Assembly (NCBI GenBank): GCA_905178155.1
Contig: CAJINV010000002.1
Coordinates: forward strand, 2,574,226-2,638,225
Source: Amoebophrya sp. A120
Lineage: Eukaryota > Protista > Dinoflagellata
Length of the DNA: 64,000 nt
Direction: 5' to 3'
Shown here: in pieces, positions 167 through 63,134 of the stretch
Layout of the letters: every line of letters starts with the position of its first letter
Position numbering within the stretch: position 1 is the first letter of the stretch
Position numbers and translations under genes: made by a program
The notes under the pieces: generated by a model
The model's database searches: none
What the model was told of the DNA's origin: nothing
What the model saw: only the letters and a program-made list of their open reading frames with translations

Positions 167-3100
167 ATGAAGCGACTTTTTGCTGGGGAGATAAATAGCA
201 AAGAAACTGTGAGGTCAAGAACCTCTAGTCAGGATCAGGAAGGAGCTGGTAATAGTGGAACAGTAGGAATAACTACGCATTCGCAGCATGGACTAGCGCA
301 AGAACAACACGAGGACCAAAGTTCTTCTGTGGCTTTTCCAACTGCGACCGAAAATGAAGACGAGCTGTACAACTTCGGGACGAGAACTAATACTAACAGC
401 CAGAACTTGGTGAGAAACGACCTTCACAGCGGCGCTCGTACGGGACGATTGTTCTTACCACCTGCCCGTCCTGTTGCAGCGAGTTCTAGCTCGGCCGCAG
501 CAGAAGTCGCACAACAACTACCCCAAGCACTATCACCAGACCGCTCTTCCGAGAACAACCGGAGTCGGCACGCTATCGTACCGGCCCAAGCTGTGGATAA
601 CGAGGCAGGTGACTGGTTCAATCCGTTTGTGAAGTCAAAGGAGACGAGTGTCAGTAAGAGCAGTGACAGTAGTTGTGACAAATCATCTGGCGATATCGCA
701 CATAGTAAACTGCAGAAAGATGAAACAGAATTTCTGGACACTGAAGAAGATTACTCGAACACCATCACTGCGGGTTCTCGTGCAGGAGTAAATCAAGCAG
801 GACAACTACAACATCAAAGGACAACTACAAATACAATCTCTGCTGCTGCCGTTCCGAAGAACCATATCAACCAAAACGTTCAACCAATTGCGAGTGCCAC
901 AGGACCACGAGCAGCAGCATCGTCACCGACCAATCAATCTTCGTCATCTGCCGCGGCGCATGATCCTCGCGTTGGGAATCTACTAGACCCGCAACAGCAG
1001 GTGCAGCAATCGAGCAGCGCAACGAGCGGCGAAGAAGACCTCGTCCACATCAGAGAAGAAACGCCTTTGAGCCGCAACGCGGTTTCGAAGCATCCCAGTT
1101 TTGCGTTAGCTCCGCAGAGTCGGAGTGTAGTAAATACAACAGCTCTTGTACTTCCTATCACAGCGGCATCAAATTTTGCTGGTGCATCTTCCACAGCAGC
1201 AAATCCCGCTGTACTACTCCTCGCCGCAGCCGCTCCTGCGTTAGGAGGTGTACAACTACCAACGGGAGGCAAAGGCGGCCAAGTCGTGGCTACTGATACG
1301 ACCCTAGGAACTTCTGCATCTTGTTCCCCTAGTGCAGCCACGAAGGGACTAAACCTACAACAACCATCAAGCTGGACCTCCAAGGGGACAGGGAAAAAAA
1401 TGACGGCCGGCTATAATTTAACATCCCCAGCTTTTTCTGTCCAGAACATTTACCAATCCCAGCTGGATACCGAGGAAGAGCGAAAACGCATCCTACAGTA
1501 CCAGCAGGCCATCCGCGCAGAGGATGAAAGAAGACTCCGGGAAGAAGAGCGGCGGGTTGCCATTGAAATGGCGGAAATCCAAAACAAGGCCTGCCCGGCG
1601 CACATCTACGAGCCGGGGAGCAATAGACTGCAGTTGGGAGGTGATGGAGAAGTATTGAATCCAGAGCCGGACAGCGATATCCTGTGCAAAAGTATCGTAC
1701 TCGTATTGCAATCATGCATTACAAATCTTTTGCGTAAGGTAATTCCGCATTACAAATTTTATTTCTCACGCTGAGGAAATTTGTAATGCATTTGTACGAG
1801 TACGATACTTTTGCGGGGCATAAGCGAGAGGAAGCGCCGGAAAAAAGATTTGAACGAGCGAGAAATGCATGAACTGGAAGAAAAGGGATTTATCAGGAGT
1901 AAACCGCCAATGCTGGTGGTGGGCAGCAGCAGCAGTAGTAGTCTTGGTGCCGCCGCGCCGCGGTCGAGTTCCGTGCCGGTAGAATTACTCTTCTTGATAT
2001 ATGGACTTTATTTTATCTTTTTGCTTACAGCGCGATGTGGTTTTTCAACTTGATTGAACATACCATGGTTGTTGCGTCAGTTGCTTTTGCAGGCTGCATC
2101 AAAGCATGTGCATTCTATTGGGTCACATCCACATGGCAACGAAAATCTTTTTCCTCAAAACGCACAGATCTCCGCCGCCAGTGCGAATCTTCTACCGCTC
2201 GTCCAAGGTGGCACGACGGACACAGCAGTTGCTGGCAGCCACACGACAACGTCTACCTTAACAACCCGGATGAACAACCCCCGCGCCTCCCTCGACCGTC
2301 GCCCCCCGCGGCTCGACGGAGGTCCGAAGTCCGCGACTCCGGGCCAAAAGTCATTTGTCGTTTCCAAGCCGAACGGCAAGTCGCCGCTCACAGGACCCGG
2401 CCGCGGGCGCGGCAGCGGGCGGAAGAATTTGATGAACACAATGTCCGGAAGTACTAGAGGGAAAGGATTCGGGAAACAACAACAACAGGATCTTCAAGGC
2501 TTTTCTCCAACACCTATCAAAAGGAAAAATCCCCCCTCCCCATATCGAAACGAAGTTTCTGATGCTGGATTTCCGTACACAAATCAGATTTGTCGTGCAG
2601 TAGAGGACTGCAGGCATATGTCAAGCCTCAGTCGAGAGGTTTTGACGTAGGCGCCTAGCATGGCAAACGTGTATGCTCTAATCTAAACAGCATCACAAAC
2701 CGCCTGCAAAATGCAGGGCGCTCTCTGGACTTGCCTTCTTGCAAGACAGACAGGATTTGAGGTCACAAATGCGCATCGTAAATTTTCAGACGGATAAGTT
2801 TTCAATATGGGGAGGGGGGATTTTTCCTTACGATAACACCGCACTTGCGGTCGTTCTCTTCGCCGGGCGTTGGGAAAGGTGAGGTGTATGCATTGCAAAT
2901 ATGATGTCTGGGTCTGTAATGGTGCAAGGTCTGATGCTGTCTCTGGATTCTAAAAAAATCTGTGTTGCATGACCGGCAGGAGGATTGCAGTTTGTACGAC
3001 GTGGGGATGACATTTGTCATGCGGGATAGGCATCAGGAAGCCCTTACAAAATCTGTGACGCTAGGTCACGCATTACAGGCATCATAGGTCATGCAAAATA

Positions 3101-3354
3101 TGCATGACAAACCTGGCAGTCATCCAGACCGAGACATATTTGCATTTCATAACGTGATGCGGTCTACTACTTCGCCACTTCCGGGTTTGTTCCCGGAGAT
3201 CCCACCCGGTGGGTACCTGACGGTTTACTCGCCAGACGGAGTGGCCGTGAAATCGTGGGAGATCGTGAAGCCGAGTACTGCGGACGAGTGGGATGGGTAT
3301 ACTTGTTTTAATATTGTGATTTTGTTTCATCTTTTACTTTTGCCAAGCATGTAG
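167..3354 (+). CDS. Gene 1: low-complexity Ser/Ala/Gln-rich hypothetical protein with short coiled coil (5 exons)
   Basis: ORFs 98, 1811, 2054, exon 2841-2886 and ORF 3091 join in frame after removing introners 1678, 2515, 2887 and GT-AG intron 1979-2092; start and 3' end uncertain. Confidence 0.65.
1678..1822. mobile_element. Introner family D
   Basis: TIR TATCCTGTGCAAAAGTATCGTAC; DR AGCGA/AGCGA. Confidence 0.9.
1979..2092 (+). other. GT-AG intron
   Basis: GTAGAA..TTTTGCAG, phase 0, joins ORFs in frame. Confidence 0.7.
2515..2835. mobile_element. Introner family B
   Basis: TIR TATCAAAAGGAAAAATCCCCCTCCCCATAT; DR ACACC. Confidence 0.9.
2887..3151. mobile_element. Introner family A
   Basis: TIR TAT..TGCAAATATG..TCTGGGTCTG; DR AGGTG/ACGTG. 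Confidence 0.9.
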
Positions 3355-3919
3355 TATAATCCTGATTGTGAATGATGTGCGATGTTTTTCTGAAGTATGG
3401 TAGCACCAAAAGAAAGGAAGTTTTGTTGTCGATGAAAGTCGAAAAGGTCGTTTTTGCAGCGATAGGCGTGGTGAAAATGTCAAGACTTCTGTAGCAGTAG
3501 GCATGATGGGTCCTCTTTACTGCGCTGTGCTGAGCCCCTGTTGTAACTACGAAAAAATTGCGATAGCGATATATCATGTAGTTGTCGTTGCTTTGGCGCC
3601 GGACGACGGATTTCCTTGTAGCCAAACCAAGATCTCTCCTTGTCGCTTTGATTCTGCCAGATGATCCTTGCCGCTGCACCTGTTTTCTTCTAAGCGCGCT
3701 TTCTTTTGCCATTTCAACAATACCTCAGCTTGATTTGCTGTTAGAACCTTTCGTCTCGAAGTAGTGAAACAGTGACTAAGTTGGTGGAGGTTGATGTGTA
3801 GGGTGAGTTGTGAGGAAGTATGTGAAAGACGATCAGTAGTAAAGCTTTACGTACCAGGTTCTTTTTATTTCGACATCAAGAGGAGACAGCATAATTTTAC
3901 CCAGCGACACCACGATCGC

Positions 3920-6900
3920 ATGACAGCAGTCCTGTCGAGCGCTGGGCAGCTGCAGGCTGCTGTGATTGGCAGGACTACTGCCACTGCTAGTACTATCGCT
4001 GACAGCGCTAGTACGAGCGCAACAGCAAGAACTGTTGACACGACAAGTTGTGCCAGTTCTTGCGCAGCTGCGAATATTAAAGCAACTGATGTGAATCTCC
4101 TGTCCGATTTGATCGATAGCCTCCAGCTCAGCAAGAGTCTCAGGCCTAGAAATCTGAAATCCCCCATGACCTCCACCGATGTGTTGGTGACAGCCGCAGC
4201 AGTTGTGCAGCCAGTAGAACCTGTGCGCCAGGTTGTTGTAGTACCGTCGCTTCCTAGTAGCAGTAGTACAGCAACATTATCAACATTTTCGGGCCCGCCT
4301 CATAGAACTAGTACAACCGGGGAGGTGACGGCTGGTGGTCTTCTTGCCGGCGCACCTGGTGGAGGTTGTACTGGTGAAGACAACATGGTGCAGCTGGCAC
4401 AATATTCGTCCTCGAAAGCAGCAGCACCCGTTATAATTCCCTACGGTAGCAGTTCCGCTAGCGAAACTTGCCATGCAGAAACAAGTAGACCACCAAGACA
4501 GTTGTACCCAAAGCCTGTGGGGAAGAGCGCCATGCTCAATTTGGCGAAGCATTTCAAGGAGTTGAGAACAAACAAACCTTCGTCAATAAATTTACAATCG
4601 GACGACCGTATTGCTCATCATCATCTCCTTGGGGATGGTACTTCTTCTAGTATGGCGGCCACAGTCAGCACATCAGCGACTTTATCTTCGCTTAACCACC
4701 AGCACCAGCGGCCGCCACCACCGGTGCTGCTGAAGGAGAATGTTTTCAACCAGGAAGGTGAACATGATCTGAAAGCAATTAAAGACCACGGCGAAAATGT
4801 GAAGATGATGATAGTACCCCGTCTCCGCAATGAAGTAGCAGTAGTAGGAGAACAACAGGCGCTGCCCCCACCTCCATTACAACCAGAACAACAACAGCAA
4901 AATAGTAGTAAAACTATGCTGCATCAAGTGCAGCAAAATCTGTGCCTGCAGACCATCTACAGCCAGAAGGATTTTCTAGAGCCAAACCCCTCGCCTATAC
5001 CGAGTAGACCGACAAGCCCGCCGCCAACCTACGATAATTCGATTGTCAGTGTAGTAGAAGTAGTAGATCAAGAAGAACTTCTAGACCGAATGAATTTTGG
5101 TTTACAACTATCCCAAACAAACAGCGCTGTCATTCCCGGCGATCAGCAGTTCAAGATCAAGGACAACATTTGTCTCATCGCCGACGTAGATGATGTGGAT
5201 CCGAATTTTGAGACAGTGAGGAGAGACAACGATTTGCTGAAGCAGCAGGAATTAGAAGACGAGAAAAAACGGGAAGAGGCGCAAAAAGTGAAAGAACGCC
5301 TGGAATTAGAACGAGAAAGGCGGGCGGAATGGGAACGGGAGCAGGAGGAATTGCGGGAGCGGGAGAAGTTGCGCAGGGAGCAGAGCCTGGAAAGGCAGAG
5401 ACAGGCTGCTGCCGCACAGCAGGCCGCAGGCGCTGGTGCTGCTGCGTCGAGTAGTTCCATCCGTGCCGCGCCCTCCGCCGCGTCTGCCGCAGGATCGAGT
5501 GCTTCCCAGGGACTGGGCGGGAATATGCAGAGATCATCTTCTTCGCATGCAGTAGCATCTGGTCAGCAGGTGTTTCTGGAGCAGACCGATTCCGGCACCA
5601 TGTTTTTCCGAACGGCCTCGGGCCAGAAAGTGTTTCCGAACGTTGCGCCGGGCGGAAATAGCAGCCGCGGGGGAGGAGATGAAGGGGGGGAACAGGTACA
5701 GGTGAGTTTGTTTTTTGGTTGATAAGTACAATTTCTATTCAGTCGCTTTTCATCTCTGTGTGGTGTGCAGTTCCTCTTCCCCGTCACCCATCATCCATGA
5801 AATAGCAACAATATGCTTCGCAAACGACATCAGGTTCAAGAGCCGCACGCCCTGGAGGACGTAGACGACGAAGATCCGGTTGAAAAGAACGACAGTGCCG
5901 AGTCCCGCTCGAAATCCTCCGGTTGCATCGACGAAGCCAGTGTCAGCCCAGACCAAGGGAAGAACAAGAAGTCGGTCGGGAACAATAAACCAGCTGCGAG
6001 TAGTTCCTCGAGTTCGGTACAGCCGCAAGCGCAAATGCAGAGCCGAGGCAGAGGAAGCGCAGTCACGACTGCGAGTGCGGGGGACCAGCAAGTGCCAGTG
6101 TTGGAGGACCACGCGGACGAAAATCAGCGGACCACTTCCCGGAAGAGGTCTTCTCTCCAAAGGCAGATATGGATTGCAAATATGTCTGGGTCTGGAAGAG
6201 CCAAACTTGTGATGCTGCATTTGCATGCTAAAACAATCTGTATTGCATGAGCAGCAAGAGGAGTCAAATTTGGCTACGCAGAGAGGGCATTTGTCATGCA
6301 GGATGCGCATCGATAGGCAAGGCGCTCCAAAAATCTGTGATGCTATGGCATACATCACAGACATCATGGATCATGGAAAATGTGCATGACAAACTTCTCC
6401 TCTTTCAGAGCCAGACACTTTTGCACTTGATAGCAGAGTCTTTCCCACGAAAAGGAAAGGGAGGAAATTTCCGCTGCGCCAGGAAAGCGGAGGTACTTAC
6501 AATTCATTGTTTCGAGTGTTTTTCTGATTCAGATTTTGCATGAGAAGTTTCATGCCTGGCGCATAGGGAATTATCGATGTTGTCATGCAAGACGCGACTG
6601 CAGGCACAGAACAAAAGTACATACGGAACAATTTGGCAATTATCAGGTCCGTCCGCGAGAAGTCCCCGGATGGAGACAACCTCCAACTTGACTCTTTCGA
6701 GCAGGACGACCTTGCTCCCTCGCCGGATGTCGAGCGGGAGACGCGGAGATTGCAGCTGAGCAAATCGAGCAATCAGGGCGGGAGTAAATCTTCCAGTGAC
6801 AAACAAGTTGAGGAACCCGATGACCAGCCAGGAAGGAGTCAAGCAGCGCCAGGAGCTTCTGCGTCTTCTTCACAAAATCTGCCACGACAGAAGTCCGCAC

Positions 6901-9900
6901 AATCCTGCCCCCAACCATCTCCTCCCCGTCTAGAGGACCACCGGGGCGGTACTATTTCATCGCAGCAAGGAACGAGTAAAGGTAGTTCCTCGTCAAATAA
7001 TAATGCGGTAGGAGAACAATCTCGATCTCCTGGTGTAATGATTCCTGAAGCATCTACTTCTTCCAACAACGATCAAAATCTCGATACTTTCGACCACGAC
7101 CACAACAATTTCGACGACGACGGTGGTCATGATGTCGGTACTTGTTTTGAAGACGACCTCGGCGGAGCATCAAATGGACTCCAGAATTCCGCCGGATCGG
7201 CGTTCTCCTTCGGCGGACGGCCAGATCAATATCAACTGCAAAGATGTCTGGGTCTGGAAGGATGCAGAGCTGTCATGCTTGTCTGGCATGACAGAAAAAC
7301 TTGTGATGCGTGTCCCAGAAGACGAAGAGACCCTTTTACTCGTCATGCGAAGATGCAGCTTGTCATGCGGAAAGCGCAACACTATAGCGGAGCACGTCTT
7401 TCTCATGCTCTGCTGTGCATTACAGTGCATTGTCGGTCGTTCACAACCCAGCATTACAAGTTTCCAGACCCAGACACATTTGCACTGCATAATCAACCGG
7501 GCACGCCAAATTTTGGTGGAACCAGCACCGGTTATTTTCAACAGCAACAGTTTCATCAAAACATTTCTAAGCCTCCGAAACAGCACCGCATCACCGGAAA
7601 TACAGACGCGCGACCGAAGTACGATATCAACGATCCAAGAAGAAGCAAAAGATCTTTCATCCCGGTCTTGAACCACAGTAACAACAACCGCTTGATCGTC
7701 CCCAACCTGCCCCCGATGGTGACCGAAGGGCTACTCGAAGACGTGGATGAGGACGACGAGGATTTGTTGCTAGGAGGGGAGAACAATTTTTCATCCAAGT
7801 CGAAGAATAAGAAACCGCGAAGGTCTGACTGGGAGATTATGCACGACCAGATGGAACTCGGGAAGTCGAAGCATGATGTGTCGAAGCCGAATTCTGCGCA
7901 TGCCATCGCGAAGGAGAAACGGCTATGAATTGCAAATATGTCTGGGTCTGGAAGGATGGAACTTGTGATGCTGGATTTGGATTCTAAAGAGATTTGTACT
8001 ATTGCATGACCAGCAAGAGGAGTCCAGTTTGTGCTACTTAGGGAGGGCATTTGTCATGCGGAATAGGCATCAGGAAGCCTTCGAAAGATGTCTGACGCTA
8101 GGCCATGCATCACATGCGTCATGGGTCATGCAAAACATGCATGGCAAACCTTGCACTCTTCCAGGCTCAGACGTTTTTACATTTGATAACGGCGAAAAGA
8201 GCGGGAACTCGCCATGCGCAACCGGTCGGCGCAGACCACCGTGCTCGTGCCTCATTTAAATCTGCAGCGCGACGTCAAATTCAACCGGGAGGCGGTGACG
8301 GTCGAGGCGATTCTGGACGCCGTGGCACAACTGAAGGAACACCAGGGAGGGAGTGGAGGAGATCATATTAACCCAGATGATGTTGAACACGATGATGAAT
8401 ATAATAACCTCACGGCAGAATTTCTCGTGGAGGAGCACAAGCGGAAAAACTTGCAGGGGAGTCCCGCCTCGTATGCATTGCAAATACTTTAGTCTGGGTC
8501 TGGAAAGTTGTGATGCTAATACATTAATAGCAAACTGACTCCAGTACGCGGTCCCGCATGACAAATTTATGAGCAATTCTGCAGCGTCTAAGAAATGCAC
8601 CTGTGCATGACAAGAAGCAGAGCTATTCCATCACATGCATCACAGAGTTCAGGAGCATGCCAGTTCAGCATTACAAGTCCCGACCCAGACATGTTTGCAA
8701 TGCATACTTCGTCCCGCGGCTCCATATCTAGGTCGAACAGTCCGGAGAAGAACTTTCACGTTTTGGAGGATAAAAACTTATCCACGTCCGGCAAGAGAAA
8801 TTCGGCCAAGGGCATCGTCCCGGAAAAATTGAAAAAGCAGAAAGAAATGGAGCGGCAACAAAGAGAAATGGAACTGCAACTGCAGAAGAAAGCCGCGGCG
8901 GTTCTTGCGGCGCAACAAGCCGGAATAGCTGGGAGTTCATCTGCGGTTCTGGGTAGCAGAATCCAAACTGGTGGATCATCATCATCGAGTGCGGTGCCGG
9001 GAAGGGGTGCAGGTAAGAGGATGCTCGTGTATTTGATTTGCAGACACATAGAGAGTACAACAGTTAGTGTTAGTTACAGTTATCCCTCGTCTTCTTTTTC
9101 GCTCGACTTTGTCATTCATATTGACGAATTTTCACAACAACATCGACCACCACCAAATTCTCTACAAATTATCAGCCATCAAAGCCTCGCCACCGACCGG
9201 TAATTATCCGCCAGAGACTTCCCCGCCCTCTTCCGCTCCGCCACCAGAAGCTTCACCCCAACACCTCCATTCCTACTGGAAGGACCCGAAAGTGTCGGTG
9301 CGCGACATCCACATCACCCCGGCCGGCAGGGTGAAGATTGACAAGAGGGCCGTGTTACCCCGGTTATCCGAGATCAAGGAGGGCAGCAAAGAGGTCAGCT
9401 CCAGTCCGGGCAGTGCTGGGTCGCAGTTGAGTCAGGACGAATTGGAGAAGATCAGGACAAAAATGAAACAGATGAAAAAGGGAAAACCATCCGTTCTGGA
9501 GCAGGTTCTCGAGGGGGACGAGGAAGATGAGGAAAGCAGCGCGGAGCATTTCGAAGGACAAAAAACCCGTAAAAAAGCCGCTGAACAAGATGTTGACGAA
9601 GATTTCCCCATGGAGGACATGCTGGACGAGCAGCACTTCCCAGCGGAAATTCTATCAACTGTAAAAATCCCTGGATGTCTGGAAACTTGTGATGCTGTGT
9701 GGCATATCATGAGGAGGCCACAATTGCTGGCTCAGCATGACAAGTTTCTGAGCTTCTAGGTGTTGCCTATTCTGCATGACAAACTACGTTTCTGCATGAC
9801 AGAAAAGTGGGGCTCTTTGTTAATGTGCATGACAGATTTAAGAGTCGTGCCAGACAAGCATGACAAACTTGCATTCTTCCAGACATCCAGGGATTTTTAC

Positions 9901-51339: not shown

Positions 51340-54300
51340 ATGGAGATGGCGACGTCCAGTGCTCTCAACTTCGATGGTGACGAAATCGATGTCGTGAAGC
51401 GTTTCGCTTCCTCGTCTTCTTCTTCCTCATCGTCCTCTATTTGTGCAGCTTCTTGTTCATCCGGCATTGGCCACCACCACCATCTATTTCCCCAAGAACA
51501 AAAAAAGATGTTGCACCGGCAGAACAAAAAACAATTTCCGCTTCTGCTCCGTGCGAGCGGAAGCCTCTGTGCACTTTACTCGGGAGTAGCTAGTCCAACA
51601 GGAGCGGCCTATTTCTTCTCGCAGCAAGTTGTACTGGGGGCAGGAGCGGCCGAAGATTCTGATAGGAACTACGCAGAGAAGAAGATTGACACGGGGGTCG
51701 TAGTGCCACAAAGGAGCAACTTGCGCCGTCGTGGGGGCAGGAAGAACTTTTTCGGGACGAGTCGTGAAGAAGGAGATGCGGGCAGCAGTGCAGCAGAACC
51801 AACATCGACTCTGTCGAGCACTACTACTTCTAGGCCCAATCTCCGGCATGGCGCGCGACTGAAATCGCTCCTGGAAATCAAGCAGAAAACAACTGCGCAG
51901 GATGTGCTGGCAGAGAGACCAGAACCAGCAGTCGGGACGAATCACGGGCGGGAAACATCAGAACAAATTTTCATCCCGGCGGATGAAATAGTAAATTCGA
52001 CGCAGTCAACATCAATTCCGTTCTCGACTTTGGAAAAAGTGAGCAAAATCAGTGAGGAAAAAACCAGTCTCGGCCAGCAGCTCTCGACAGCAGTAGAAAG
52101 AAACACGAGAACCTCGGAAAAGCAGGAAGAAGGTCGTGAGGAGCAAAAGTTCACCCTTGAAAAACAAACCCTCCAGCAGAAAGAACACCGCCGAGAGCAG
52201 ATTGCGAGGAAGATTTCGGAACTGAAGCAGAAAACGGCGACCGCGCAACAGCAAATGGAGCGGTTTTACCGGGAGCAGGTGCAAAAACGGATGCGGCTGG
52301 CGCGGTTGGACAAGGTGAGGACTACGAGAGTTGTGCAGGGGACCGGGGAGGTAGTGGCTGAAGGAAGTACAACTACCGGACGCAAAGCTCTAACTTCTTC
52401 TACGATGAAAGCCCGGGAAAACGAAGAACAGGCGAGCAAGCTCGCGGCGCGAATTAGTCAGGCGAGGAAAACGAAGGCGAAACAGAACCTCCAGGTGCGG
52501 AGAAAAGTGCAACGGAAGCGGAACTTGCGCGCGCGACGGCGTCTCGACCGGGACTCGGGCGATGACGAGGATGATGACGGTGACAATGATGAAGACGGCG
52601 GTGACGATGACAATGACGATGGCGGTGGGAACAGTGCGAGTGTGGAAGACAGCAGTGAAAGCGGCGGGTCCTCGGGCTCGTCGTCGGGGAGCGGGAAGAA
52701 GAGCAAGGTCGACAGTTGCGGTTTGTTGGGCTTGTGTGACTCGAGCAAGTATCCTCGATGAACTGGTGCAATAGTGCTTCGTACTTCTTCTTCTTCTTCG
52801 GTCTGATATACTGCATGACAGATTTGCTTTGTTCATTCTGAATCTGCATGACAAAAAATAATTTCCATGCATTCGAAAAACATAATGTCATGCAATGTCC
52901 CCTAGAAGTACAAGTAAGTCAAGAAGTGCGAAGACCAAAGTAGTTTTGCCTTGCATAGGAGGAAGAAAGCTTCCGGGGGAAAGAAGGAAGACAAAACGGT
53001 ACAGAATGTTGCCATCTGTGCCGGAGTGCTCTTCGTCTTTCTGCTGATAGCGGTCGGGCTGTGTGTCTGGAAAGAGAAGGAGCGCCAGGAAAAAATGCGC
53101 CAGGCGAGGCTGCGCAAGCGAATCGCCCAGGAGGCGGCGGCGACAGGAGGCGCGCAATATCGTATTTAAAAACGTCCCCACCCCAGAGTTGTAATGCAAA
53201 TCTGCATGCTCAGAATGTTTCTCATGCGGAGCCCCATGAGAAGCATTTTTTAGTCGTGTTTTGCAATTTGTCATGCTCCAATCTGCATGATGTACTAGAT
53301 CTGTGATACTGCTGAGCTAGCTCAAACAGCATTACGCTAAGAGCAGTCCGAATTTGTCATGCAAAACAGCCAAAACTTGTGGATTTGTGTTTGTCTAGCC
53401 GATTCCCCAGCTTGACTATGGGGTGGGGACGTTTTTACATAGGATACGCAAAGTGACGGCTTCACCCTGACGGGCTACCGGCGGGGGGACGTGCAAGCGA
53501 GGGGTATGATTCGGTGCAAAAGTGATAGTATCTTCGCCGGGTGGTCGTTGTAATTGCAATTGCAATAATGCACGACAGATATGCAGTTTTTTTTTTCCGA
53601 TTCCGAGTTAATATATGATTATCTGCACGACGATTTTTAATTGTAGTCCCCTTGTGCCTCTGAAAATAAAGTTTGTGATGCAATTTCTAGAAGGGCGGCG
53701 ATAGTACCTAATGCTTTTGCAATGCATAAGAGCTCAAGCGGAGCAGCGCGCGTTGGATGCGTACGAGCAAGATCAGAGCCAGCGGCATTTGGACGAGGTA
53801 ACTATTTTGGTGTTTGTCATGCATAGAAACGAATGCAGCTTGCTGCTGTCATGCATCGACCACATCATAACTGAATAATTTTCTTTGATGCAAATTGAAA
53901 TTTCGCATGCGTTTTCCCAACTAAAAAAAACAAGGTGAAGGAGCGCGGGTTTTGGTTAGCGCAGGATGAAGCGGACCGGTTAAAGGAAGAGCTATCCATT
54001 GCAAATATGTCTGATTCGGGACGAATGCAATATTTGTCATGCATCTCGCAGACCAAGACCATCCACATGGTTTGGAATGTGCACAAGCATCACAGTTTTT
54101 GCGAGACCTTGTTGATGCCTCTCCCGCATGAGAGGTCCTTTTGCCTAGGAAGAGGTGGAGGCCTTTTGTCTTCATGCAACACAGATTTCTTTTTGGTCGA
54201 GGCCTCGCATGACAAGCTACATGCTTCCAGACCCAGAGACATTTGCAGTGGATAAGGGCGGGATGGGTACAATGCTTATTACGAGGAATATCAAAATGAA

Positions 54301-54651
54301 AAATCTCCCCTCCCCATATCAAAACGGAAATTTGTGATGCTGATTTGTGAGCACAAATCAGCTTTGTATTGCACAAGGGCACTGCGGCCAGATCCCCAGG
54401 CTAGGTAGGGGCGTATGGGTCTAGTAGTTCAGCATGGCAAACGGCCCCCCTTTAGGCCCAACAGCATGAAAAATCGCTTCCATAATGGGGCGGAAGCTTC
54501 TGCCCTTGTCTTCTTGCAAGACAGGTGTGATTTGTGACCTCAAATCCGCAGCGCAAATTTTTGGAAACATACCTTTTCAATATGGGGAGGGGGGATTTTT
54601 CCTCTCAATAAGGAAGAGGACGAGTATTACGACGACGGTTCCTGGTGGTGA
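51340..54651 (+). CDS. Gene 9: coiled-coil single-pass membrane protein
   Basis: ORF 51340, TM VAICAGVLFVFLLIAVGLCVW, tail ending YYDDGSWW*; 5 internal introners, one at the stop codon, GT-AG intron 53798-53934. Confidence 0.7.
52750..52957. mobile_element. Degenerate introner, unassigned family
   Basis: TAT..ATA, GCATGACA motifs; DR GCAAG/GGAGG; in-frame removal. Confidence 0.65.
53158..53446. mobile_element. Introner family C
   Basis: TIR; DR CGCAA; close relative of 21027 copy. Confidence 0.9.
53505..53728. mobile_element. Introner family D-like (old)
   Basis: TIR remnant TGCAAAAG; DR AGGGG/AGAGC. Confidence 0.75.
53798..53934 (+). other. GT-AG intron with introner motifs
   Basis: AG|GT at both ends; TGTCATGC x2; in frame. 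Confidence 0.7.
53993..54254. mobile_element. Introner family A
   Basis: TIR; DR AGAGC/AGGGC. Confidence 0.85.
54289..54610. mobile_element. Introner family B
   Basis: TIR; DR AGGAA. Confidence 0.9.
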
Positions 54652-54958
54652 TATGGAAGCGTCAGGTTTGAAATCGACAAAGTTGAAATGATTTGTCATG
54701 CATAAAATGCATGACGCGACTTACGTGTGTTGCAGAGCAACCAAGTGAGACCGATTGTAAGCCTGTTTGGGGTTAGAGGTTGAGCTGCTAAAGTAGCATG
54801 AGAAAATCAGTCCTCTTTGCCTAAACAGCATGACAAACTGGATTGCGGTAACGCCGGAATTTGTCTTGCGCCACTTGGAAACTGGGTTCCGACTGGCATC
54901 CAATTCATGCATGGCAAACTATTTCAACTTTGACGATTTCAATCCTGACACTCCCATA
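54652..54958. mobile_element. Introner family E at stop codon
   Basis: TIR; DR GGTGA; close relative of 31666 copy. Confidence 0.9.
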
Positions 54959-56265
54959 GGTGACCAGGAAGTGAAAAATCGAGCACAAAAAAAATGAAGG
55001 CAGAACTCATCGGAGTAGAAATTAGTTTACAATATCCTAACCAGCCCGTCGATGACGTTGAAATTGAATAAAGACCTGTTTGAATTTTTGCAAGAATCAG
55101 ATTTTTACTACAACCACACTGTTCACCTCGTGCTGTCTTTTACGTTTGATAAATTTCTTACAGTTTTACAACAAGAGAAGTCATTGACCTAGTTTACTTT
55201 TACCTCATTTGTGCCTTTTACTTGTTTCGCGGACCACAGTGCCTGACGTCGATGTTGATGATGTATACTAAACAAATATTTATCTTGATTCTGTATCAAA
55301 AAACTCGTTTTCTTGCTACACAGATTGAACAGAGTTTATGCATGCTTCGTACTAGTTTGCATGAAAATTCGGAAAAATTGGTCTCACCTCAGTTTTGTGA
55401 CTACAATAATTAATCAGCACTTCTTCTTGTACCATTTGAGAAAACAGAATTATCTGTGAAATTAGCTCTACTATTCACTTCCGAGATTTTCTACTGTACC
55501 ATAGGAAGGAAGCTAAATTTGGTTTCGAAGAAAGAGGAGCTGCACACAAAAGAACAATTCCTGCAAAAATAAAAATCGTTGCAAGGCCACAGGCACTACA
55601 GATTCTCGAAAAAGAATTTCTACCGGACTAGACAGATCGTGGCATTTCTGTAAACGATTTCTTGCAGCAGCAAAAAGACTATGCGAAACAGGCACGGGTA
55701 TGATTTCGCTTGTGTGAAAGAACACGGACTCCGCCTGTTGCGTTTTCAACCAGAGGGAAGTCGTGTAGCGCTCCTTATCGTGATGGAAAGAACAAACACA
55801 ATCCGAACTCGTTGGGGACGAAGAATCGTTTTTATCGCTGAGCGACGAGGTTGTAGAAGAGAGGCATCGAACATGTAAAGTTTGTCGTCTGTGATCGTTA
55901 TATTATTCGGAGAGCAGTCTCAGCCAGGAGTCCTCGTAAAGGAAAATCGTTTTCATTTCGTGGTCAGTCGTTGTCGTTGGCTGATGCTGGTATCGCACTC
56001 GTCAATATCGTTTTACTTCGGTGATAAATGGTATCGGTTCGCGCTGCATCAAATACTCAAGGGCGGCACTAGTTAGTACAACACCTCTCAGCCACGCTTA
56101 CTAACAATTTTACACGAAGATCCACGCGGCGTGTTCTGCACAGTACTTTCCTGTGGAGGGAAAAATAGAGATACTTTCAATAAGTTGTCCTCAGGGTCAC
56201 CGTGAAGAAAAAAGAAGAAAAGCCAGAGTTTTATTACCAGATTCCCCACCTAGTTTATTAACAAA

Positions 56266-59200
56266 ATGAGGCGACTCAACACCGGGAATAAAAAAGCATC
56301 ATTGTTGCTCGGCTTTCTCTCCCACCAGCACCAAATCGCCCTTGTGACCGGCAGGATAGGTCGTGGTGGCCGAAGTAGAGGGAAAAATAGTGGAGAGAAG
56401 AATCTTCACGCAGCCGCTCCTTTCACGACGCAGCAAGAGGAAACACAAACTACACCATCAGCATTTCACGCCGAAACTAAAAGTCTCCTCGACCTCGACG
56501 AAGGAGGGGGTGTCCTCCAGGAGCCCAAAATAAATACGGGAGAGGATGATGATAGTACAACTAGCACGACCTTCGACCTCGAGGCGCATGAAAACGCGTT
56601 TTCCGCACTGGAGATAAATTTCAGCGTGAAGATGTTGAACAAGGAGAAGGAAAACGAGGTGGAGGCGAAACACACTAAATTGAACGTCGAGGAGGAGAAA
56701 ATGAGCAGCAAAGAGGGACGAGAAAATGTCGAAAAAACATCCTCCGAAAGAACGGCCTCCCAATACGAGCAGAAGAAAGAACAGACTTCTGCTAAGCAAC
56801 TCTCCGCTGCTACCGCTGCTGCGCCGAAGAAAAAAGACGAGGAAAGCGAGGACGATGAGGGCGGGGATGACGACTATGGGAGTGTAGTCAGGTTTGAAGT
56901 CGACAAAGTTGTCCACTTGCTAGACCTGCAAGACAGGCACTCTGTGCATGGCTTTTCATGCATGGCAAATCCCATTCCAACTTTGTCAATCTCGGTCCTC
57001 TGGGCGCTTCCATATTTGCGACGGAGATGATGATGATGACGGACACGGAGATGAGGACGAGTATGGAAATTGAAAGCTCCAACCGAATTCTGAGGCGTGA
57101 ATCGAAGCATAATTGCTGCATCAAATTATCACCAGGATCATGAACAAGCACTGTGTGAACGAACTCCTGCGCTGCACGGAGCTACTTCACCATAACAAGA
57201 ACAGAGGAAATTTGTTGATATTTCAGAATTCGTTTTTACCCCTTCCATACCCTCGGCGGAGAAGACGAGCACGAGGAGGGCGGGGAAGACGAAGGTACCG
57301 AGGAGGAGGAGGAGGATCCCAAAAAAGCGAAAAAGGACGCCGCTATCGCCGCCAAGAAAGGCGCGAAGTCAGCTGCACCTCCTGCGAAAGCGGCAAAACC
57401 GGCAGCGAAAAAAGAGGAACCGGAGGAGGAGGAGGGTGAAGAGGAAGAGAATTATCTGGCGGAAAAGAAAGTTGAATCGTTTTCATCAGTCAAAGCACAC
57501 GGTAGAAACATCGCGCACACACCCACAATTGATGCATGACTTCACCTCTCATGGTCGGGAGCGGAAAGAACTACATGTTTGGAGCATAGCCCTACAAGAT
57601 TGTTATATTTTTTCTTGTAGACGAGGACGACGACGAGCCGACTGACGGATCGATACGTTTAAATCTTTTCTGAATCTCCATACCGGCGAAGAGGGAGGTG
57701 ACGATGACGCAGAAGAAGATCGCGACGGTGACGATGCTGAACCGAAAAAAGGCAAAGACAAGAAAGCCGCGGCGGGGGGTAAAAAAGGGGGTACTAAAAA
57801 GCCCAAAGGTATGGGGGTGTCAGAATCGAAATCGTCAAAGTTGAAATAGTTTGTCATGCATAAAATGCAGCCCACAAAGTGCCTGTCTTGCAGATTAGGC
57901 ACGTCAGGCAGATTGTAAATTTCCTGTTGAGGGGAAGGGGTAGACATTGAGATGCTAAAGTAGCATGACAAAAGGCGTCTTCCTTACGCAAACAGCATGA
58001 TAAACTGACTTTCGGCTCTGCCCAAATTTGTCATGCGCCACTTAGCAACTGGGTTACACTTACAACTTTCATCCATTTTATGCATTACAAGTCATTTCAA
58101 CTTTGTCGATTTCAATTCTGACACATCCATAAAAGGCCCAGCGAAGAATCCGGAGGAGGAACAAGCGGAAGAAGAGCCAGCGGATGATAAACCGAAGAAA
58201 AAAGAACCCTGCTGTGCGGGCGCGGCGACGGAGAAAATGCACAAAGCAGCGGACAAGAAAATCCGAAAGACCGGCAATCTTGCGGAAGATGACGATGAGT
58301 TTCTGCACAGCTGTGGCTGCTCCAACTCCTCCGCGCTCCTGCTCATTTTCTGCCTGACCCTCCTCTGCGGCATGATCGCTTTTATCGTGCACAGCTACAA
58401 GCGGCAACAGTTTCTCGCGGAGCGCGGGGCCGGGCACGCGCACAACTCCGCGGCACGAGCGAACGCGCACAAGGGCGTCGACACGCAGGGTTTCGGCGGC
58501 GACAACCTGGATATCAACGGCAAATATGTCTGGACGGTCTGCAAATCTGTATTGCGCATTTTTCTTGACTTGAAAATCTGTGATGCATGAACCGGATCGG
58601 GAGCACCACAGCGCGACTGTCTACCATGCAAAAGCAAAACTTGTCATGCTAACTCCGCATTGCGTACACCACTTGCTTCAAGAACCTTTTGATGCTTAGC
58701 TAGATGCTGAGGTTCGTCTCTTATGGAGCGAGTAGCATCACAACTTTCCAAAGAGCGCAGACATATTTGCAATGCATACTGGACGACATCAAGTTTCCGG
58801 CCGGTGGTGGCACAGCACCCCGACCAGAACGGATGAAAGGACCGCCGGAGCAGTATCAAATAAAGGAGAAATCCCCCGTCCCCCTATCAAAACGAAGTTT
58901 CTGATGCAGGATTTGCGTACACAAATCAGATTTGTCTTGCTGGAGAGGAATGCAGGCCCATACTAAGCCTAAGTCTAGAGGTTTTGGCCTAGGCGTCTAG
59001 CATGAGAAACGTCCACACTGTAGGCCCATCAGCATCACAAACCGCCTGCACAATGCTGCGGAGCTTGTGGAGTTGTCTTCTTGCAAGACAGACGCGATTT
59101 GTGGTCTCAAATCAGCAACGCAAATTTCCGGAAACATACCCCTTCGATATGGGGAGGGGGGATGTTTCCTTTTGATAAGCAGGGGAAGGGCATGTCCCCG

Positions 59201-59290
59201 GCTGGCAGTCCAGGCGCAGGCTGGGGCATGGGGGGCAAGGGGCCAGTCGCGGCGAACACGTGGGCTCCGTTTCAGGATTGGCGGACGTAA
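56266..59290 (+). CDS. Gene 10: acidic/Lys-rich single-pass membrane protein
   Basis: Signal-like leader, D/E-rich exons, TM ALLLIFCLTLLCGMIAFIV; 6 introners removable in frame; TAA at 59290. Confidence 0.7.
56875..57014. mobile_element. Introner family E-like, short, DR lost
   Basis: TATGGGAG..GACAAAGTTG / CAACTTTGTC..CTTCCATA. Confidence 0.75.
57062..57249. mobile_element. Degenerate introner, DR lost
   Basis: TATGGAA..CGAATTCTGA / TCAGAATTCG..TTCCATA. Confidence 0.75.
57453..57682. mobile_element. Degenerate introner, DR lost
   Basis: TAT..GAAAAGA / TCTTTTC..ATA; in-frame removal. Confidence 0.6.
57810..58131. mobile_element. Introner family E
   Basis: TIR; DR AAAGG. Confidence 0.9.
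58512..58778. mobile_element. Introner family A (diverged)
   Basis: TIR; DR CTGGA. Confidence 0.85.
58854..59177. mobile_element. Introner family B
   Basis: TIR; DR AGCAG. Confidence 0.9.
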
Positions 59291-60716
59291 ATTTTTCTTG
59301 GTATCTTCGAAGATCTTCTTGGGGTCGTGCTGTGAATGGAATTATTGATTTCTTCACAGGCTATCTCAAGCGGGGAGTGGAGATCAACTTCTTTTCAGTT
59401 TTCCACTGCTGTTCTAGCAAGTTTGAAGAGAGGAAGAGAAACTATCAACGTTCCAGGAGGCAGGGACAAACTGGAACCTCTTCTAGTTTATGACAGACAA
59501 CAAAGAAGTTTCGTTCTCATTGACTTTTGACAATAACTTTTGACAACTTTCAGTTATGATCGACCTTTAGTTTCAACGCAGAAAATATGTACTTACCTAA
59601 AGTTTCAGCTTCAACTAGAGTACTGCTCTTGAAATTAATTCACACCGGATTTTGATATGCCGGGGATGAGAAGCCCGCAAATTAAGTAAAATGTACAAAA
59701 ATCCGCTTAAAAGATCAGCTTTCGGAACAAAGATTTGTCCGTTCGAGACATGTACACAATGAATTCAAAAGCAGATGCAGATGATTGGGTACCACCGAAA
59801 TTGAAAAATTTGGAATTGTACGCTGAAAACCTGTACAGTAGTAGCGATGATTTTTAAGAATAAGATGTCGATTTCGATAGGTCGATATATATCACTCTGT
59901 GTCATCTGGTCGATGGGCCGCCCTTTGTTGTTCCTTTTTCGTTGCATTACGTACAAATAGTTGTTTCTGTGCTGGAAAAGGCAACGAGTCAACACGAGAG
60001 AAGCCGCAGCGGTTAAATAGGCTAAACACGTTTAGAAGAGCCACTGAGACTGACTTCCACGTCGCGTTGGTGTCGTGCATGAACTATTGCTCGTCGTGCT
60101 TCTGAGTTACAGGAATGCAGTGTAGTCCGAGGTGTCGTATAAACTACCCAATCGGTCGTCCAATTCCAAATCCGGTTTTTTTTCCGCACTGTTTGTTTTC
60201 GTGTAAAATGATTTATGGAGCTACAGCCGGTCGGTCGAAAATTTGTCCTTCGTACAACGGAAGATTCTGGTTGTTGTTATCACATCGTTCACAAAGCGCT
60301 TCGTCCTACCGATATAGCATTTTTCTTTTCCCTTGTACTTTTCATGAAGTTGGATAGAGCCCTAAGTTCATCTTCTTTCACGACCTTGAAAACAACAGTG
60401 CTTACTCCACATGCCCCCCTCATCGCACAACTACAACGACCCATAGCTTTTTACGTACGTGTAGAGTGTACAAAAGAACTATCACCCCCATATTTTTAGA
60501 GCTTTAGCAATACAAATCCCCCTTACAACGTAAAAGAAAAGCCACATCAAAACTGCTACTCCTCCTCTCCCAAAAGTCAGAGTCAAATAAGGCAAACCAA
60601 GCAAGCTTTTTTTTTGACTTTGTTTCGAGTCACTGTTCGATCGATTTGCCGGTGCGAGTTGGTTTGTCACAAATACTAACTTCGCATTCGACGAATCTAA
60701 CCGAGACTCGTCCGAC

Positions 60717-63134
60717 ATGGGAGGCGCTTGCGCATCGAAGCAAGCGGTAGCAGCAGCGGAACCCGCTGCGGCAGCTCCGAAAGCCGAGAAAGGTACGAGA
60801 AATTATGGAGAGAAAAAAGTTTGTCACAGTCACTATCTTGCAGGTTTTGCATTACAAATTTTCTCAGCATCACAAACTTTCCTTGTATTGCAGAAACACT
60901 AGGGAAATCCCTAATGAAGTTTGGCTGTGATGCATTTTTACGCATGACAAACAATTTTGTATTGCAGGAATGCGCATGAGTGATCGTGACGAACTTTTTT
61001 TCTTTGATAGAAATGGTAGTAACAACAATAATTCTGATAACGAAAGTACTCCCCCACCTCCGTTGAAGTTCAACGATGAGAGCATTCCAAAAATAATAAT
61101 ACACCCCCCAGTGCCCACGCCCGAGCCGAGCAGCGCGAACGCCATCACACCGCAGCAGAGTGTATGGAAAGGAAAAACTGTTTCACTGTAGTAAACTTGT
61201 GATTGGCATAGAATGCAAGAACACAGACGCGTTTGGCTTGCTACACATGCAAGACAGTGATTGGGTTTTGAAACGTGTTTATTTCTCGTAGGAAGTACGC
61301 ATTGCAAGTTTTCTCTGTCATGTGTACTGAACTTGTGATGCAAAACCTGCAAAAAAATCCTTGCAGTGAAACATTCCTTTCCCTCTCCATACTCCGCGGA
61401 CGTCGCTATCCCCCGTGAGGAGTCCAAACCCGCTGCCCCGATTCCGACCGGGAAATTCACCGAGGATGCTATCCTATGTAAAAACGTCCCCACCCCATAG
61501 TTGTCATGCATATGTGCAATGTACAGGAAGATTTGTAATGCGCATCTCCATGAGGGACATTTCCAGTCGTGTTTCGGACTTTGTAAATATAATGCTGTAA
61601 ACAGGATGAGAAGCTGGGTTTCTCATGCGGCTGCCCTTGCTAACCAGCACTACACTGCAGATGGAAATTTGTGATGCACAACTCACAAAACTTGGAGATT
61701 TGTGTTGCAGCCTTCCCATCTTGATTCTGGCGCGGGGACGTAGTTTTTACTCAGGATAGATGCGTACTTTGAGCTACCGGAAGGCGTCGCTGCCGAAGAG
61801 GTCACCAAGTTTCACTCGGCCGTGCGGTGGGGCATATGCATTGCAAACGTATCTTGCTGGTAGAAGTCCTTGCAGTCTTGCATGACAAAGCTGGTTTCTG
61901 TAGGCAATGCACCACGACAAGTTCCAATTCCATTTGTCATGCTGAGCAAATTTGTGTTGCCATTACTCCTATCACGCTACTTTAACTTTTGCAATGCATA
62001 GGGCAAGCCGATCGCGGATTTGGAGCCGTTTTTGGTAGAGGACATGGGCGGAAAACCGGATTTGCTCAACGCCGCTGATTATCAAATGCAAAAATGTCTG
62101 GGTCTGGAAGAATGCAACTTGTAATGCGTATTTCAGAACACCATGCATACGTAGCAAAAGCTCCCACTTTTTGTCAGAAAAATAGGGGACTTGTCATGCG
62201 GATTCGGCATTGCGGAAGGTTCTCCAAACCTGTGATGCTAGAGCTTCCATGCCAGCCCTTCTGGGTAATGCAAAAACAGCATGACTCTTCCAGACCCAGA
62301 CATTTTTACATTTGATACTGATCAGAAGAACGGGAACCGGGCCGTGCACATCGCCGCGCAGAATGGGCATGAGGAGATCACGAAGTGGCTGATTGGCACG
62401 CTGAGTGCGGATGCGAACGCGCAGAATCGGAAGGGGCAGACGCCGTTGCACATGTATAAAATTGTGTTGAATGAACGTGCTTCACCTTTTTATGCATGAC
62501 AAACCACGGTTCTGAATGGTACACTCTGCATCACAAATCTATATGGCAAATCAGGTCTATCGAGTACGACTTTTACTTTCAAAACGTTTTTCTCCTGACG
62601 TCCGGCGCGGACCAAACCTTAACCAACGCGGACGGGCACCCGGCGATGTTGGGCATCGACGGGAAATATGCATTGCAAATATGTCTGGGTCTGGAAAGTT
62701 GGAACTTGTAATGCTGGTCTTGCATTCCTGTCAGATCTGTATTGCATGACTCACAAAAGTCGCAGCCTCTACTGTCATACAAAAACGCAGTTTCTCATGC
62801 GGAGCGCGTATGAGGAAGCGTTTTGCAAACGTGTAATGCGTTCCTGCATGAGGGAGCGTTTTCGTCATGCACATTTCAGCATCACAAATTTCCAGACCCA
62901 GACATATTTGCATTTGATAGGAAAAAATCCGGGGTGGAGGCCTGGGATCACGCCATGCAGAAGCTGAAGGCCGTCCGGGATGAAGCGAGTATGGAAGACG
63001 CGTTTGCGGCACTGGAAGCGTGCACGGATGAACTGGACAAGGGCATGCTGGGCATGACGGGGATGAAGAAAAAGAAGCAATACAAGGAGTGGTGGGATGT
63101 GAAACGGTTCACGGAAATCATGTCGAAGTTTTGA
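60717..63134 (+). CDS. Gene 11: ankyrin-repeat protein with N-terminal myristoylation/palmitoylation-type motif (MGGACAS)
   Basis: FHSAVRWG, NGNRAVHIAAQNGH, NRKGQTPLHMS ankyrin motifs; 6 introners plus GT-AG intron 62454-62554. Confidence 0.85.
60804..61009. mobile_element. Introner family F-like
   Basis: TIR TAT..AGAAAAAAGTTTGTCAC; DR GAAAT. Confidence 0.85.
61163..61391. mobile_element. Introner family F
   Basis: TIR; DR diverged GAGTG/CTCCG. Confidence 0.8.
61470..61758. mobile_element. Introner family C
   Basis: TIR; DR GATGC. Confidence 0.9.
61835..62000. mobile_element. Introner family D-like
   Basis: TIR TATGCATTGCAAA; DR GGGCA. Confidence 0.85.
62080..62317. mobile_element. Introner family A
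   Basis: TIR; DR CTGAT. Confidence 0.9.
62454..62554 (+). other. GT-AG intron with introner motifs
   Basis: GTATAA..ATCAG; GCATGACA and GCATCACA inside; restores TPLHMSIEYD. Confidence 0.75.
62667..62919. mobile_element. Introner family A
   Basis: TIR; DR GGAAA. Confidence 0.9.

What the first reader, a model, noticed from the sequence alone, without database searches (positions are those of the whole stretch)
1678..62919. About 80 TIR elements acting as non-canonical introns under one rule: DR5-TAT...ATA-DR5, remove element+5 nt
Seen: about 80 elements of at least 8 TIR families that differ in sequence, nearly all ending TAT...ATA, mostly flanked by a 5-bp DR of arbitrary sequence. They generally lack a GT-AG register, yet removing element+5 nt restores recognisable myosin, EF-hand and ankyrin frames. 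Known: non-canonical introns with inverted and direct repeats (introners) are reported in Amoebophrya (Farhat et al. 2021), so the class is not new, but to my knowledge the excision mechanism is unresolved. Inference: a transposon-derived intron system defined by terminal hairpin geometry rather than splice dinucleotides. No transposase is encoded here.
Basis: partly seen in the sequence, partly recalled or inferred. Interest (0 to 1): 0.9.

Follow-up and report, generated by a model that had tools for sequence, protein, structure and literature searches.

The report
Fixed-register transposon introns in Amoebophrya
The genes of this marine parasite are packed with small transposon copies that are missing from its spliced transcripts, with the cut one base before and four bases after the element wherever it can be placed and mostly without the usual GT-AG signals; the elements are already known, but this cutting rule, likely read by a modified spliceosome, makes their unsolved removal mechanism testable.

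Summary
Confirmed, but a known class in a known genome: an exon matches a protein labelled Amoebophrya sp. A120 at 100%, the strain whose TAT-starting introners Farhat et al. 2021 described. I find 79 TAT…ATA elements (140-326 nt, 31% of the window), 48 with a perfect 5-bp direct repeat. Transcript contigs remove exactly element+5 nt for 44 of 79; 40 of these 44 are not GT-AG. What I did not find in the texts read: a single register. All 26 usable junctions fit an intron that starts 1 nt before TAT and ends 4 nt after ATA (N-TAT…ATA-NNNN); two have no repeat and fix it exactly. It holds in both element orientations and without the repeat. An orthologous allele from a metagenome lacks one element and keeps one copy of the 5-mer, so the repeat is a target-site duplication. 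The hairpin itself is not shown to be the signal. Most likely a relaxed spliceosome that keeps U+2/A+3 (0.55); otherwise a Euglena-like non-spliceosomal excision (0.35). The scan noted similar hairpin-bounded introns in other genomes (unchecked).

The parts
1678..11539 (+). 10 elements in low-complexity + strand gene(s): 1678-1822, 2515-2835, 2887-3151, 6168-6432, 7230-7491, 7924-8188, 8472-8706, 9653-9908, 10670-10930, 11258-11539
   Evidence: frame evidence only; no RNA laid here
15085..15356 (+). single element, repeat GCGCC
   Evidence: frame only
16891..24448 (+). myosin gene (1814 aa) with 8 elements: 17679-17940, 19607-19833, 21027-21306, 21609-21864, 22305-22566, 22768-23029, 23406-23667, 23737-23998
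   Evidence: Pfam Myosin_head; my element+5 model is identical to database protein P0001, labelled Amoebophrya sp. A120
25377..29789 (+). unknown gene with 6 elements: 25885-26155 (starts TAA), 26197-26457, 27767-28016, 28194-28348 (GT-AG), 28756-29043, 29190-29347
   Evidence: 28756 and 29190 length-verified together in transcript contig
30456..41498 (+). EF-hand repeat transcript (one 4340-nt contig) with 26 elements: 31428-31631, 31666-31972, 32022-32179, 32234-32460, 32529-32800, 33055-33352, 33433-33590, 33665-33925, 33978-34240, 34595-34854, 34941-35145, 35293-35604, 35657-35918, 36130-36422, 36482-36652, 36748-37044, 37103-37314, 37752-37979, 38115-38332, 38407-38618, 38654-38904, 39045-39298, 39521-39737, 40123-40378, 40439-40705, 40774-40983; plain GT-AG introns 30939-31136 and 39351-39452
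   Evidence: record 10; sums of element+5 plus the two plain introns match the removed lengths exactly; Pfam EF-hand
39045..39298 (+). element with repeat GTGGC whose site is empty (one GTGGC) in orthologous allele L103; L103 instead carries another copy with repeat CCAAG 18 nt upstream, where the window is empty
42634..46918 (+). unknown gene (876 aa) with 5 elements: 43501-43826, 44800-45061, 45114-45372, 45945-46205 (ends ATT), 46274-46510
   Evidence: 45945 and 46274 length-verified together
47587..50657 (+). unknown gene with 6 elements: 47602-47880, 47965-48259, 48300-48613, 48849-49127, 49192-49452, 49550-49820; plain intron 49912-50042
49549..49824 (+). intron with unambiguous ends: T-TAT…ATA-CACA, element 49550-49820, no direct repeat
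   Evidence: joint 49548|49825, both=0, in runs X3 and X4
51172..55679 (+). unknown transcript with 6 elements: 52750-52957 (GT-AG), 53158-53446, 53505-53728 (GT-AG), 53993-54254, 54289-54610, 54652-54958; plain intron 53798-53934
   Evidence: all six joints
56188..59863 (+). acidic low-complexity transcript with 5 elements: 56875-57014, 57062-57249, 57810-58131 (GT-AG), 58512-58778, 58854-59177
57061..57253 (+). intron with unambiguous ends: G-TAT…ATA-CCCT, decayed element 57062-57249, no direct repeat
   Evidence: joint 57060|57254, both=0, in runs X3 and X4
60397..63131 (+). ankyrin-like gene (by eye) with 6 elements: 60804-61009 (inside plain GT-AG intron 60793-61111), 61163-61391, 61470-61758, 61835-62000, 62080-62317, 62667-62919

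Best explanation
These are non-autonomous DNA-transposon copies that insert with a 5-bp target-site duplication and are missing from transcripts as introns of element+5 nt, cut 1 nt before TAT and 4 nt after ATA wherever the cut can be placed, likely by a relaxed major spliceosome that reads U+2/A+3 at the 5' end and is predicted to set the 3' cut by distance from the inverted-repeat end rather than by AG. Shown: the elements, the 5-bp duplication, removal of element+5, the -1/+4 register, independence from element orientation and from the repeat, and no preference at intron +1, -1 or -2. Inferred: mobilisation in trans by an integrase-like DDE transposase (Ginger or IS3EU/GingerRoot type) encoded elsewhere; spliceosomal catalysis; the role of the paired ends as ruler. 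Because 1+4 equals the duplication length, any insertion at any exonic site in either orientation would restore the exact mRNA, which would explain the invasion.
For: Removal: 44 of 79 elements length-verified in transcript contigs, 40 of them non-GT-AG, and only 5 of 44 can be written GT-AG in any equivalent slide. Register: 26 of 26 usable junction ends allow the -1/+4 cut and no other cut is allowed by all; 14 are informative and 2 fix it alone; chance under a random cut about 5e-6. Orientation: cluster 0 has 16 and 15 copies in the two orientations, and reverse copies 40123, 46274 and 53993 exclude the mirror register, so the cut follows the transcript. Transposon origin: empty allele in L103; 272 of 345 elements in metagenome loci have a perfect 5-bp repeat, with pairs up to 98% identical at unrelated sites. 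For the spliceosome: the register puts T at +2 and A at +3 in 79 of 79 and a T run at -15 to -17; in Table S4 of PMC7789003 all nine top A120 non-canonical types start NT and all nine top A25 types start TT, with A25 repeats said to start TTA, so both strains keep U+2/A+3 at apparently different offsets from the repeat; 5 of 79 are plain GT-AG in the same register; 2 of the 5 elements without a predicted end stem are GT-AG (Fisher p 0.03); U2, U4, U5, U6 and PRP8 are reported in A120; the spliceosome is reported to remove transposon-derived non-canonical introns in Fritillaria.
Against: No call tests catalysis. Intron +1, -1 and -2 are at background (G at +1 in 120 of 375, AG in 31 of 375, GT-AG in 13 of 375) with no clear +1/-1 pairing rule (p 0.40 window, 0.03 loci, 0.07 pooled), whereas the spliceosome normally reads these bases (established knowledge). 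No drift of decayed repeats toward GT or AG. No branch-point motif was identified, and U1 was not detected in A120. T+2/A+3 invariance is partly by construction and TA ends are also a transposon signature. The ruler-by-hairpin step is weak: no G·U bias, equal end pairing on both strands (61 of 79 each), and 32529 and 56875 are spliced without a predicted stem. The GT-AG link to lost pairing rests on 2 cases and was not seen in the loci set (p 0.66, whose filter drops decayed copies). All genes in the window are on one strand, so the flip of the register on minus-strand genes is untested. X3 and X4 are only guessed to be RNA by the tool.
Confidence: 0.55

Rival explanations
1. Same elements and same register, but removal is non-spliceosomal: a nuclease and ligase (or a separate RNP) recognises the paired TAT:ATA ends and cuts at fixed spacers of 1 and 4 nt, convergent with Euglena nonconventional introns (N3-CAG…CTG-N5).
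For: Same architecture as the Euglena code, a complementary triplet with fixed spacers (PMC12501133); terminal bases free; works in both orientations; arm-to-arm pairing predicted in 74 of 79; U1 not detected in A120 and A25 but reported in the GT-AG strain Kv.
Against: The 5' cut lands so that U+2/A+3 is kept in A120 and, by the published table, in A25; no RNA-strand signature in the stem; no candidate enzyme known to me.
Confidence: 0.35
2. The elements are excised from DNA during development (IES-like), and the element-free contigs are DNA or transcripts of rearranged DNA.
For: Transposon ends and duplication; the tool only guesses that X3 and X4 are RNA; only 15 of 3125 joints were shown, so rare element-free DNA is not excluded.
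Against: The same contigs also skip plain GT-AG introns, so they are spliced products; single-copy contigs of run X1 run unbroken through elements 33055-33352 and 36482-36652 at depth 49-52, and through intergenic DNA and a plain intron at 45; an asymmetric -1/+4 cut that ignores element orientation does not suit a symmetric DNA transposase.
Confidence: 0.05
3. The genes are dead or the elements are retained or spliced at nearby GT-AG sites.
For: 35 of 79 elements have no RNA length check; raw RNA runs X9, X10 and X11 gave no usable exon coverage.
Against: 44 of 79 removed as element+5, only 5 of 44 writable as GT-AG; full-length frames and a database protein identical to the model.
Confidence: 0.02

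Closest known systems
Introner elements (IEs) among the non-canonical introns of Amoebophrya sp. A120 (Farhat et al. 2021, PMC7789003)
   Same: Same organism label; inverted repeats that start TAT, then seven looser bases, then at least three A; length about 240 nt; direct repeats of 3-5 nt with a 5-bp example in Fig. S19; no transposase inside.
   Different: The text calls the splice sites variable relative to the hairpin and the border unknown (Fig. 3 legend; Fig. S23 legend: 1-5 nt). Here the repeat is always 5 bp and one register fits all 26 junctions. The figures themselves could not be seen and may show part of this.
A120 introner families in Gozashti et al. 2025 (PMC12130899), especially family 38
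   Same: Classed as TIR DNA elements; the family 38 row reads 'Ginger, 5-bp TSD, TA/TA termini', with integrase-like ORFs: the best candidate type of mobiliser.
   Different: Family 38 is about 810 nt; no copy here has such an ORF. The 22 further A120 rows seen (of 58) give automated TSDs of 2-5 or none and mixed co-opt/carry labels, not one rule. I could not compare sequences with family 38.
Euglena nonconventional introns (PMC12501133; review PMC11282704)
   Same: Complementary triplets at fixed spacers from the cuts, slidable direct repeats, MITE-like origin, machinery unknown.
   Different: N3-CAG…CTG-N5-6 with a purine after the cut, against N1-TAT…ATA-N4 with no purine bias; circular products are reported there and untested here; unrelated lineage.
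Fritillaria borealis non-canonical introns (bioRxiv 10.1101/2025.08.15.670264)
   Same: Transposon-derived non-GT-AG introns in bulk, reported to need the U2-type spliceosome.
   Different: There the splice sites correspond to the inverted-repeat ends; here both cuts lie outside the repeats, in free target sequence.
IS3EU/GingerRoot DNA transposons (PMC10045372)
   Same: TA…TA termini.
   Different: Duplication usually 6 bp there and 5 bp here; no transposase available to test.

Membership tests
Amoebophrya A120 introner elements | Located in the A120 genome | tested here: met
   exon 17947-19602 is 100% identical to a protein labelled Amoebophrya sp. A120; whole model identical
Amoebophrya A120 introner elements | Inverted repeats starting TAT, seven looser bases, then AAA | tested here: met
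   position counts
Amoebophrya A120 introner elements | Direct repeat of 3-5 nt at the borders | tested here: met
   5 bp; 67 of 79 with 4 or 5 matches
Amoebophrya A120 introner elements | Removed from transcripts with non-canonical ends | tested here: met
   44 of 79 length-verified, 40 non-GT-AG
Amoebophrya A120 introner elements | Repeated families | tested here: met
   9 multi-copy clusters; relatives up to 95% identical in metagenome loci
MITE (non-autonomous TIR DNA transposon) | Target-site duplication made on insertion | tested here: met
   reciprocal empty sites between window and L103; one locus only
MITE (non-autonomous TIR DNA transposon) | Autonomous partner with the same ends | tested here: inconclusive
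   no genome held; 6 candidates over 450 nt among 345 had no ORF I could call a transposase by eye (not scanned against Pfam)
IS3EU/GingerRoot or Ginger | TA…TA termini | tested here: met
   77 of 79 TAT…ATA; definition
IS3EU/GingerRoot or Ginger | 6-bp duplication (IS3EU/GingerRoot) | tested here: not met
   0 of 79 perfect at 6 bp, 48 at 5 bp
IS3EU/GingerRoot or Ginger | Integrase-like DDE transposase | not testable with these tools
   no coding copy in hand
U2-type spliceosomal intron | GT-AG termini | tested here: not met
   5 of 79; 13 of 375 pooled
U2-type spliceosomal intron | U+2 and purine +3 at the donor | tested here: met
   79 of 79 under the RNA-derived register, partly by construction
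U2-type spliceosomal intron | Branch point and lariat product | not testable with these tools
   only contigs covered the genes; raw RNA runs did not
Euglena nonconventional intron | N3-CAG…CTG-N5-6 followed by a purine | tested here: not met
   N1-TAT…ATA-N4; first exon base A15 C27 G28 T9
Euglena nonconventional intron | Complementary ends at fixed spacers from the cuts | tested here: met
Euglena nonconventional intron | Released as full-length circles | not testable with these tools
   no raw-read coverage

The most novel reading that the evidence does not exclude
Amoebophrya A120 runs a second splicing code, N-TAT…ATA-N4, executed by machinery that ignores both terminal intron bases and measures from the transposon ends: either a U1-less spliceosome with rebuilt 3'-site docking or an unknown RNA nuclease-ligase convergent with Euglena. 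Because the spacers add up to the target-site duplication, it makes every insertion silent, at any site and in either orientation.
Probability: 0.4. Interest if true: 0.85.

Novelty: already known. Interest (0 to 1): 0.5.

Why it matters
How more than 60% of Amoebophrya introns are removed without GT-AG has been open since 2021, and the published text leaves the cut sites undefined. A single register turns this into direct tests: exact junction primers for lariat or circle, re-annotation of tens of thousands of introns, and reporter mutants of TAT, ATA and the 1- and 4-nt spacers as was done in Euglena. It also explains why the invasion is tolerated: the splice register matches the duplication length, so insertion needs no proto-splice site. 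If the spliceosome does it, it shows that neither terminal intron base is needed for catalysis in a living cell.

Tried and rejected
No genome was held, so no genome-wide search for an autonomous copy. The 45-kb contig behind L103 could not be opened, so the allele comparison rests on 628 nt. No RNA holder is on record in the run list; raw RNA runs X9 and X10 gave only element or stray reads and X11 none, so strand, retention and lariats are untested. Including DNA run X1 at 90% likeness filled the joint table with other copies. The inverted-repeat pattern had 0 matches in viral contigs. Rfam found nothing in the window. G·U against A·C bias, sense against antisense end pairing, +1/-1 covariation and drift toward GT-AG: no clear signal; whole-element MFE was slightly lower on the sense strand (p 0.03), too weak to use. 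A bulge-helix-bulge substrate was considered and rejected because the last four intron bases copy, not complement, the exon end. Repeat lengths other than 5 were rejected. Six longer candidates in the loci are copies with foreign filler or, for L075, probably a chance pairing across a host exon. The ankyrin homologue search found nothing.
Full report
Observation. A scan for TAT…ATA pairs with matching 25-nt ends gave 148 pairs, 41 with a perfect 5-bp flanking repeat, against none with 4 or 5 matches among 79 pairs in five Markov resamples. Profile scans, inspection and one RNA joint gave 79 non-overlapping elements of 140-326 nt, 31% of the window. The repeat is 5 bp and no other length: 48 of 79 perfect, 19 with one mismatch, 4 with two, 8 with more. 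They fall into 9 multi-copy clusters and 9 singletons, yet share the end pattern TAT-S-N6-AAA and an internal motif present in 75 of 79, which suggests one mobiliser. All host frames are on the + strand.

Organism and prior description. An exon is 100% identical to a database protein labelled Amoebophrya sp. A120 with a myosin head, and my model with 8 elements removed equals that 1814-aa protein residue for residue. Farhat et al. 2021 (PMC7789003; I read the abstract, sections 10, 11, 12 and 16, passages, supplement legends and part 3 of 5 of the supplement; no figures) describe A120 introner elements that start TAT, seven looser bases, then AAA, with direct repeats of 3-5 nt, 29,850 repeated introns, no transposase found in A120, U1 not detected, and splice sites called variable relative to the hairpin. 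Gozashti et al. 2025 (PMC12130899; passages, supplement passages, 23 of 58 A120 dataset rows) class most rows seen as TIR DNA elements of unknown type and note family 38 as Ginger with 5-bp TSD and TA/TA termini. The system is therefore already known.

Are they introns? The run search listed no holder on record as RNA, but four runs guessed to be RNA held 36-37% of the words, about the exon share. In one search, contig pieces of run X3 skip the elements; removed lengths equal the sum of element+5 in three gaps of 2, 2 and 3 elements, and in two gaps of 6 and 17 elements once plain GT-AG introns of 102 and 198 nt are added. In one search, 15 of 20 joints were shown, each in both X3 and X4: 12 are elements with exactly element+5 skipped and 3 are plain GT-AG introns; one more gap fits 2 elements. 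That the same contigs skip plain introns shows they are spliced products. In all 44 of 79 are length-verified, 40 are non-GT-AG and only 5 of 44 can be slid to GT-AG. The other 35 rest on frames, 8 of them also on the database protein, and one lies within a plain intron. Single-copy contigs of run X1 pass unbroken through elements, so the DNA holds them; rare element-free DNA is not excluded, since only 15 of 3125 joints were shown. Frames alone would not have fixed +5, since +2 and mostly +8 also read through.

The register. Perfect repeats hide the cut; decayed ones reveal it. Of 26 junction ends available (11 piece ends, 12 joints and 3 piece ends), all allow an intron that starts 1 nt before TAT and ends 4 nt after ATA, and no other cut is allowed by all (next best 20 of 26). 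Two have no repeat and no ambiguity: 49549-49824 and 57061-57253. Fourteen are informative; under a random cut the chance is about 5e-6. For piece ends I assumed element+5 at each junction, checked in sum for all but 28194, 45114 and 48300. Reverse-oriented copies (40123, 46274, 53993) obey the same register, so it follows the transcript and not the element; minus-strand genes were not available. Under this register +1, -1 and -2 match flank composition in the window and in 296 of 344 locus elements whose strand could be called, so no proto-splice site is used; GT-AG members are those with target NNAGG or drifted to it. The published Table S4 agrees: the nine top A120 types all start NT, the nine top A25 types all start TT. 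I did not find the fixed register stated in the texts read. Figures, unread dataset rows and Roy et al. 2023 (not read) could contain it.

Transposon origin. A metagenome scan returned 144 stretches, 141 loci, with the same repeat: 345 elements, 272 with a perfect 5-bp repeat (the repeat entered the ranking), pairs up to 98% identical at unrelated sites. L103 is orthologous to window 38950-39580: the site of element 39045-39298 is empty with one GTGGC, and another copy with repeat CCAAG lies 18 nt upstream where the window has one CCAAG. This shows the repeat is a target-site duplication, at one locus. No transposase hit in 59 window ORF pieces and none by eye in six long candidates. TA…TA ends match IS3EU/GingerRoot, whose duplication is usually 6 bp (PMC10045372, passages); family 38 is the best candidate type of partner, untested.

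Mechanism. Insertion duplicates 5 bp; splicing removes the last base of the upstream copy, the element, and the first four of the downstream copy, restoring the mRNA exactly. The catalyst is inferred. For a relaxed spliceosome: U+2 and A+3 in 79 of 79, apparently also in A25 at another offset; a U run at -15 to -17; GT-AG members in the same register, 2 of which are among the 5 elements without a predicted stem (p 0.03); retained U2, U4, U5, U6 and PRP8; and the Fritillaria precedent (bioRxiv 10.1101/2025.08.15.670264, passages, supplements closed). Against: free terminal bases, no branch motif identified, no U1 detected. For a separate nuclease-ligase: the likeness to the Euglena code N3-CAG…CTG-N5-6 (PMC12501133, passages; review PMC11282704, passages), and U1 reported in the GT-AG strain Kv (PMC12005148, passages). 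PMC11453091 and PMC12787238 (passages) added nothing on mechanism. Three earlier AI notes report similar hairpin-bounded introns in other genomes; I did not check them and they are not used as support; none exists for this genome.

Verdict. Real, expressed and already described as a class in this strain. The added value is one splice register, independence from repeat and orientation, and an empty allele. Novelty: already known. Interest 0.5, because the register makes an open mechanism directly testable; 0.85 if new machinery is shown.

Noticed in passing
L103:301-551 against window 39026-39298: Reciprocal presence and absence of two different cluster-0 copies (69% alike) 18 nt apart in an allele whose flanks differ at 4 of 312 nt. 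The window copy looks old (best relative 76%), so precise loss in the relative is as possible as recent gain.
   Followed up: partly
window 39521-39580 against L103: The shared element differs at 3 of its first 9 nt and nowhere else in the 60 nt covered; repeat ends may be converted between copies.
   Followed up: no
window 23406, 32022, 38654, 40123, 49550, 56875, 57062, 61163: 8 of 79 elements have 2 or fewer repeat matches, a tail that looks too heavy for uniform decay; old age or recombination between two copies (exon loss or shuffling) could explain it. 23406 has a 9-nt repeat offset by one base on each side.
   Followed up: partly
window 28103, 49951, 53815, 53847: The internal element motif occurs only 8 times outside elements; three hits lie in RNA-shown plain GT-AG introns and one in a likely one, so some plain introns may be decayed elements.
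   Followed up: no
window 60793-61111: Element 60804-61009 sits inside a plain GT-AG intron; order of removal unknown.
   Followed up: partly
L047:5001-5972, L031:3862-4492, L048:8959-9454, L030:571-1051, L018:5314-5770: Longer copies with intact ends and 5-bp repeats that carry foreign filler sequence.
   Followed up: partly
window 28756, 32234, 33665, 45114: Several repeat mismatches are C-to-T or G-to-A at a CG in the intronic copy, as expected from methyl-cytosine decay.
   Followed up: no
window 30456-41498: A large protein of cysteine-rich, EF-hand-like repeats with a predicted membrane segment near its end, holding 26 elements in 11 kb.
   Followed up: partly
window 12001-16000: GC-rich stretch (54-57%) almost free of elements, with a 442-codon open frame without Pfam hit.
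   Followed up: partly
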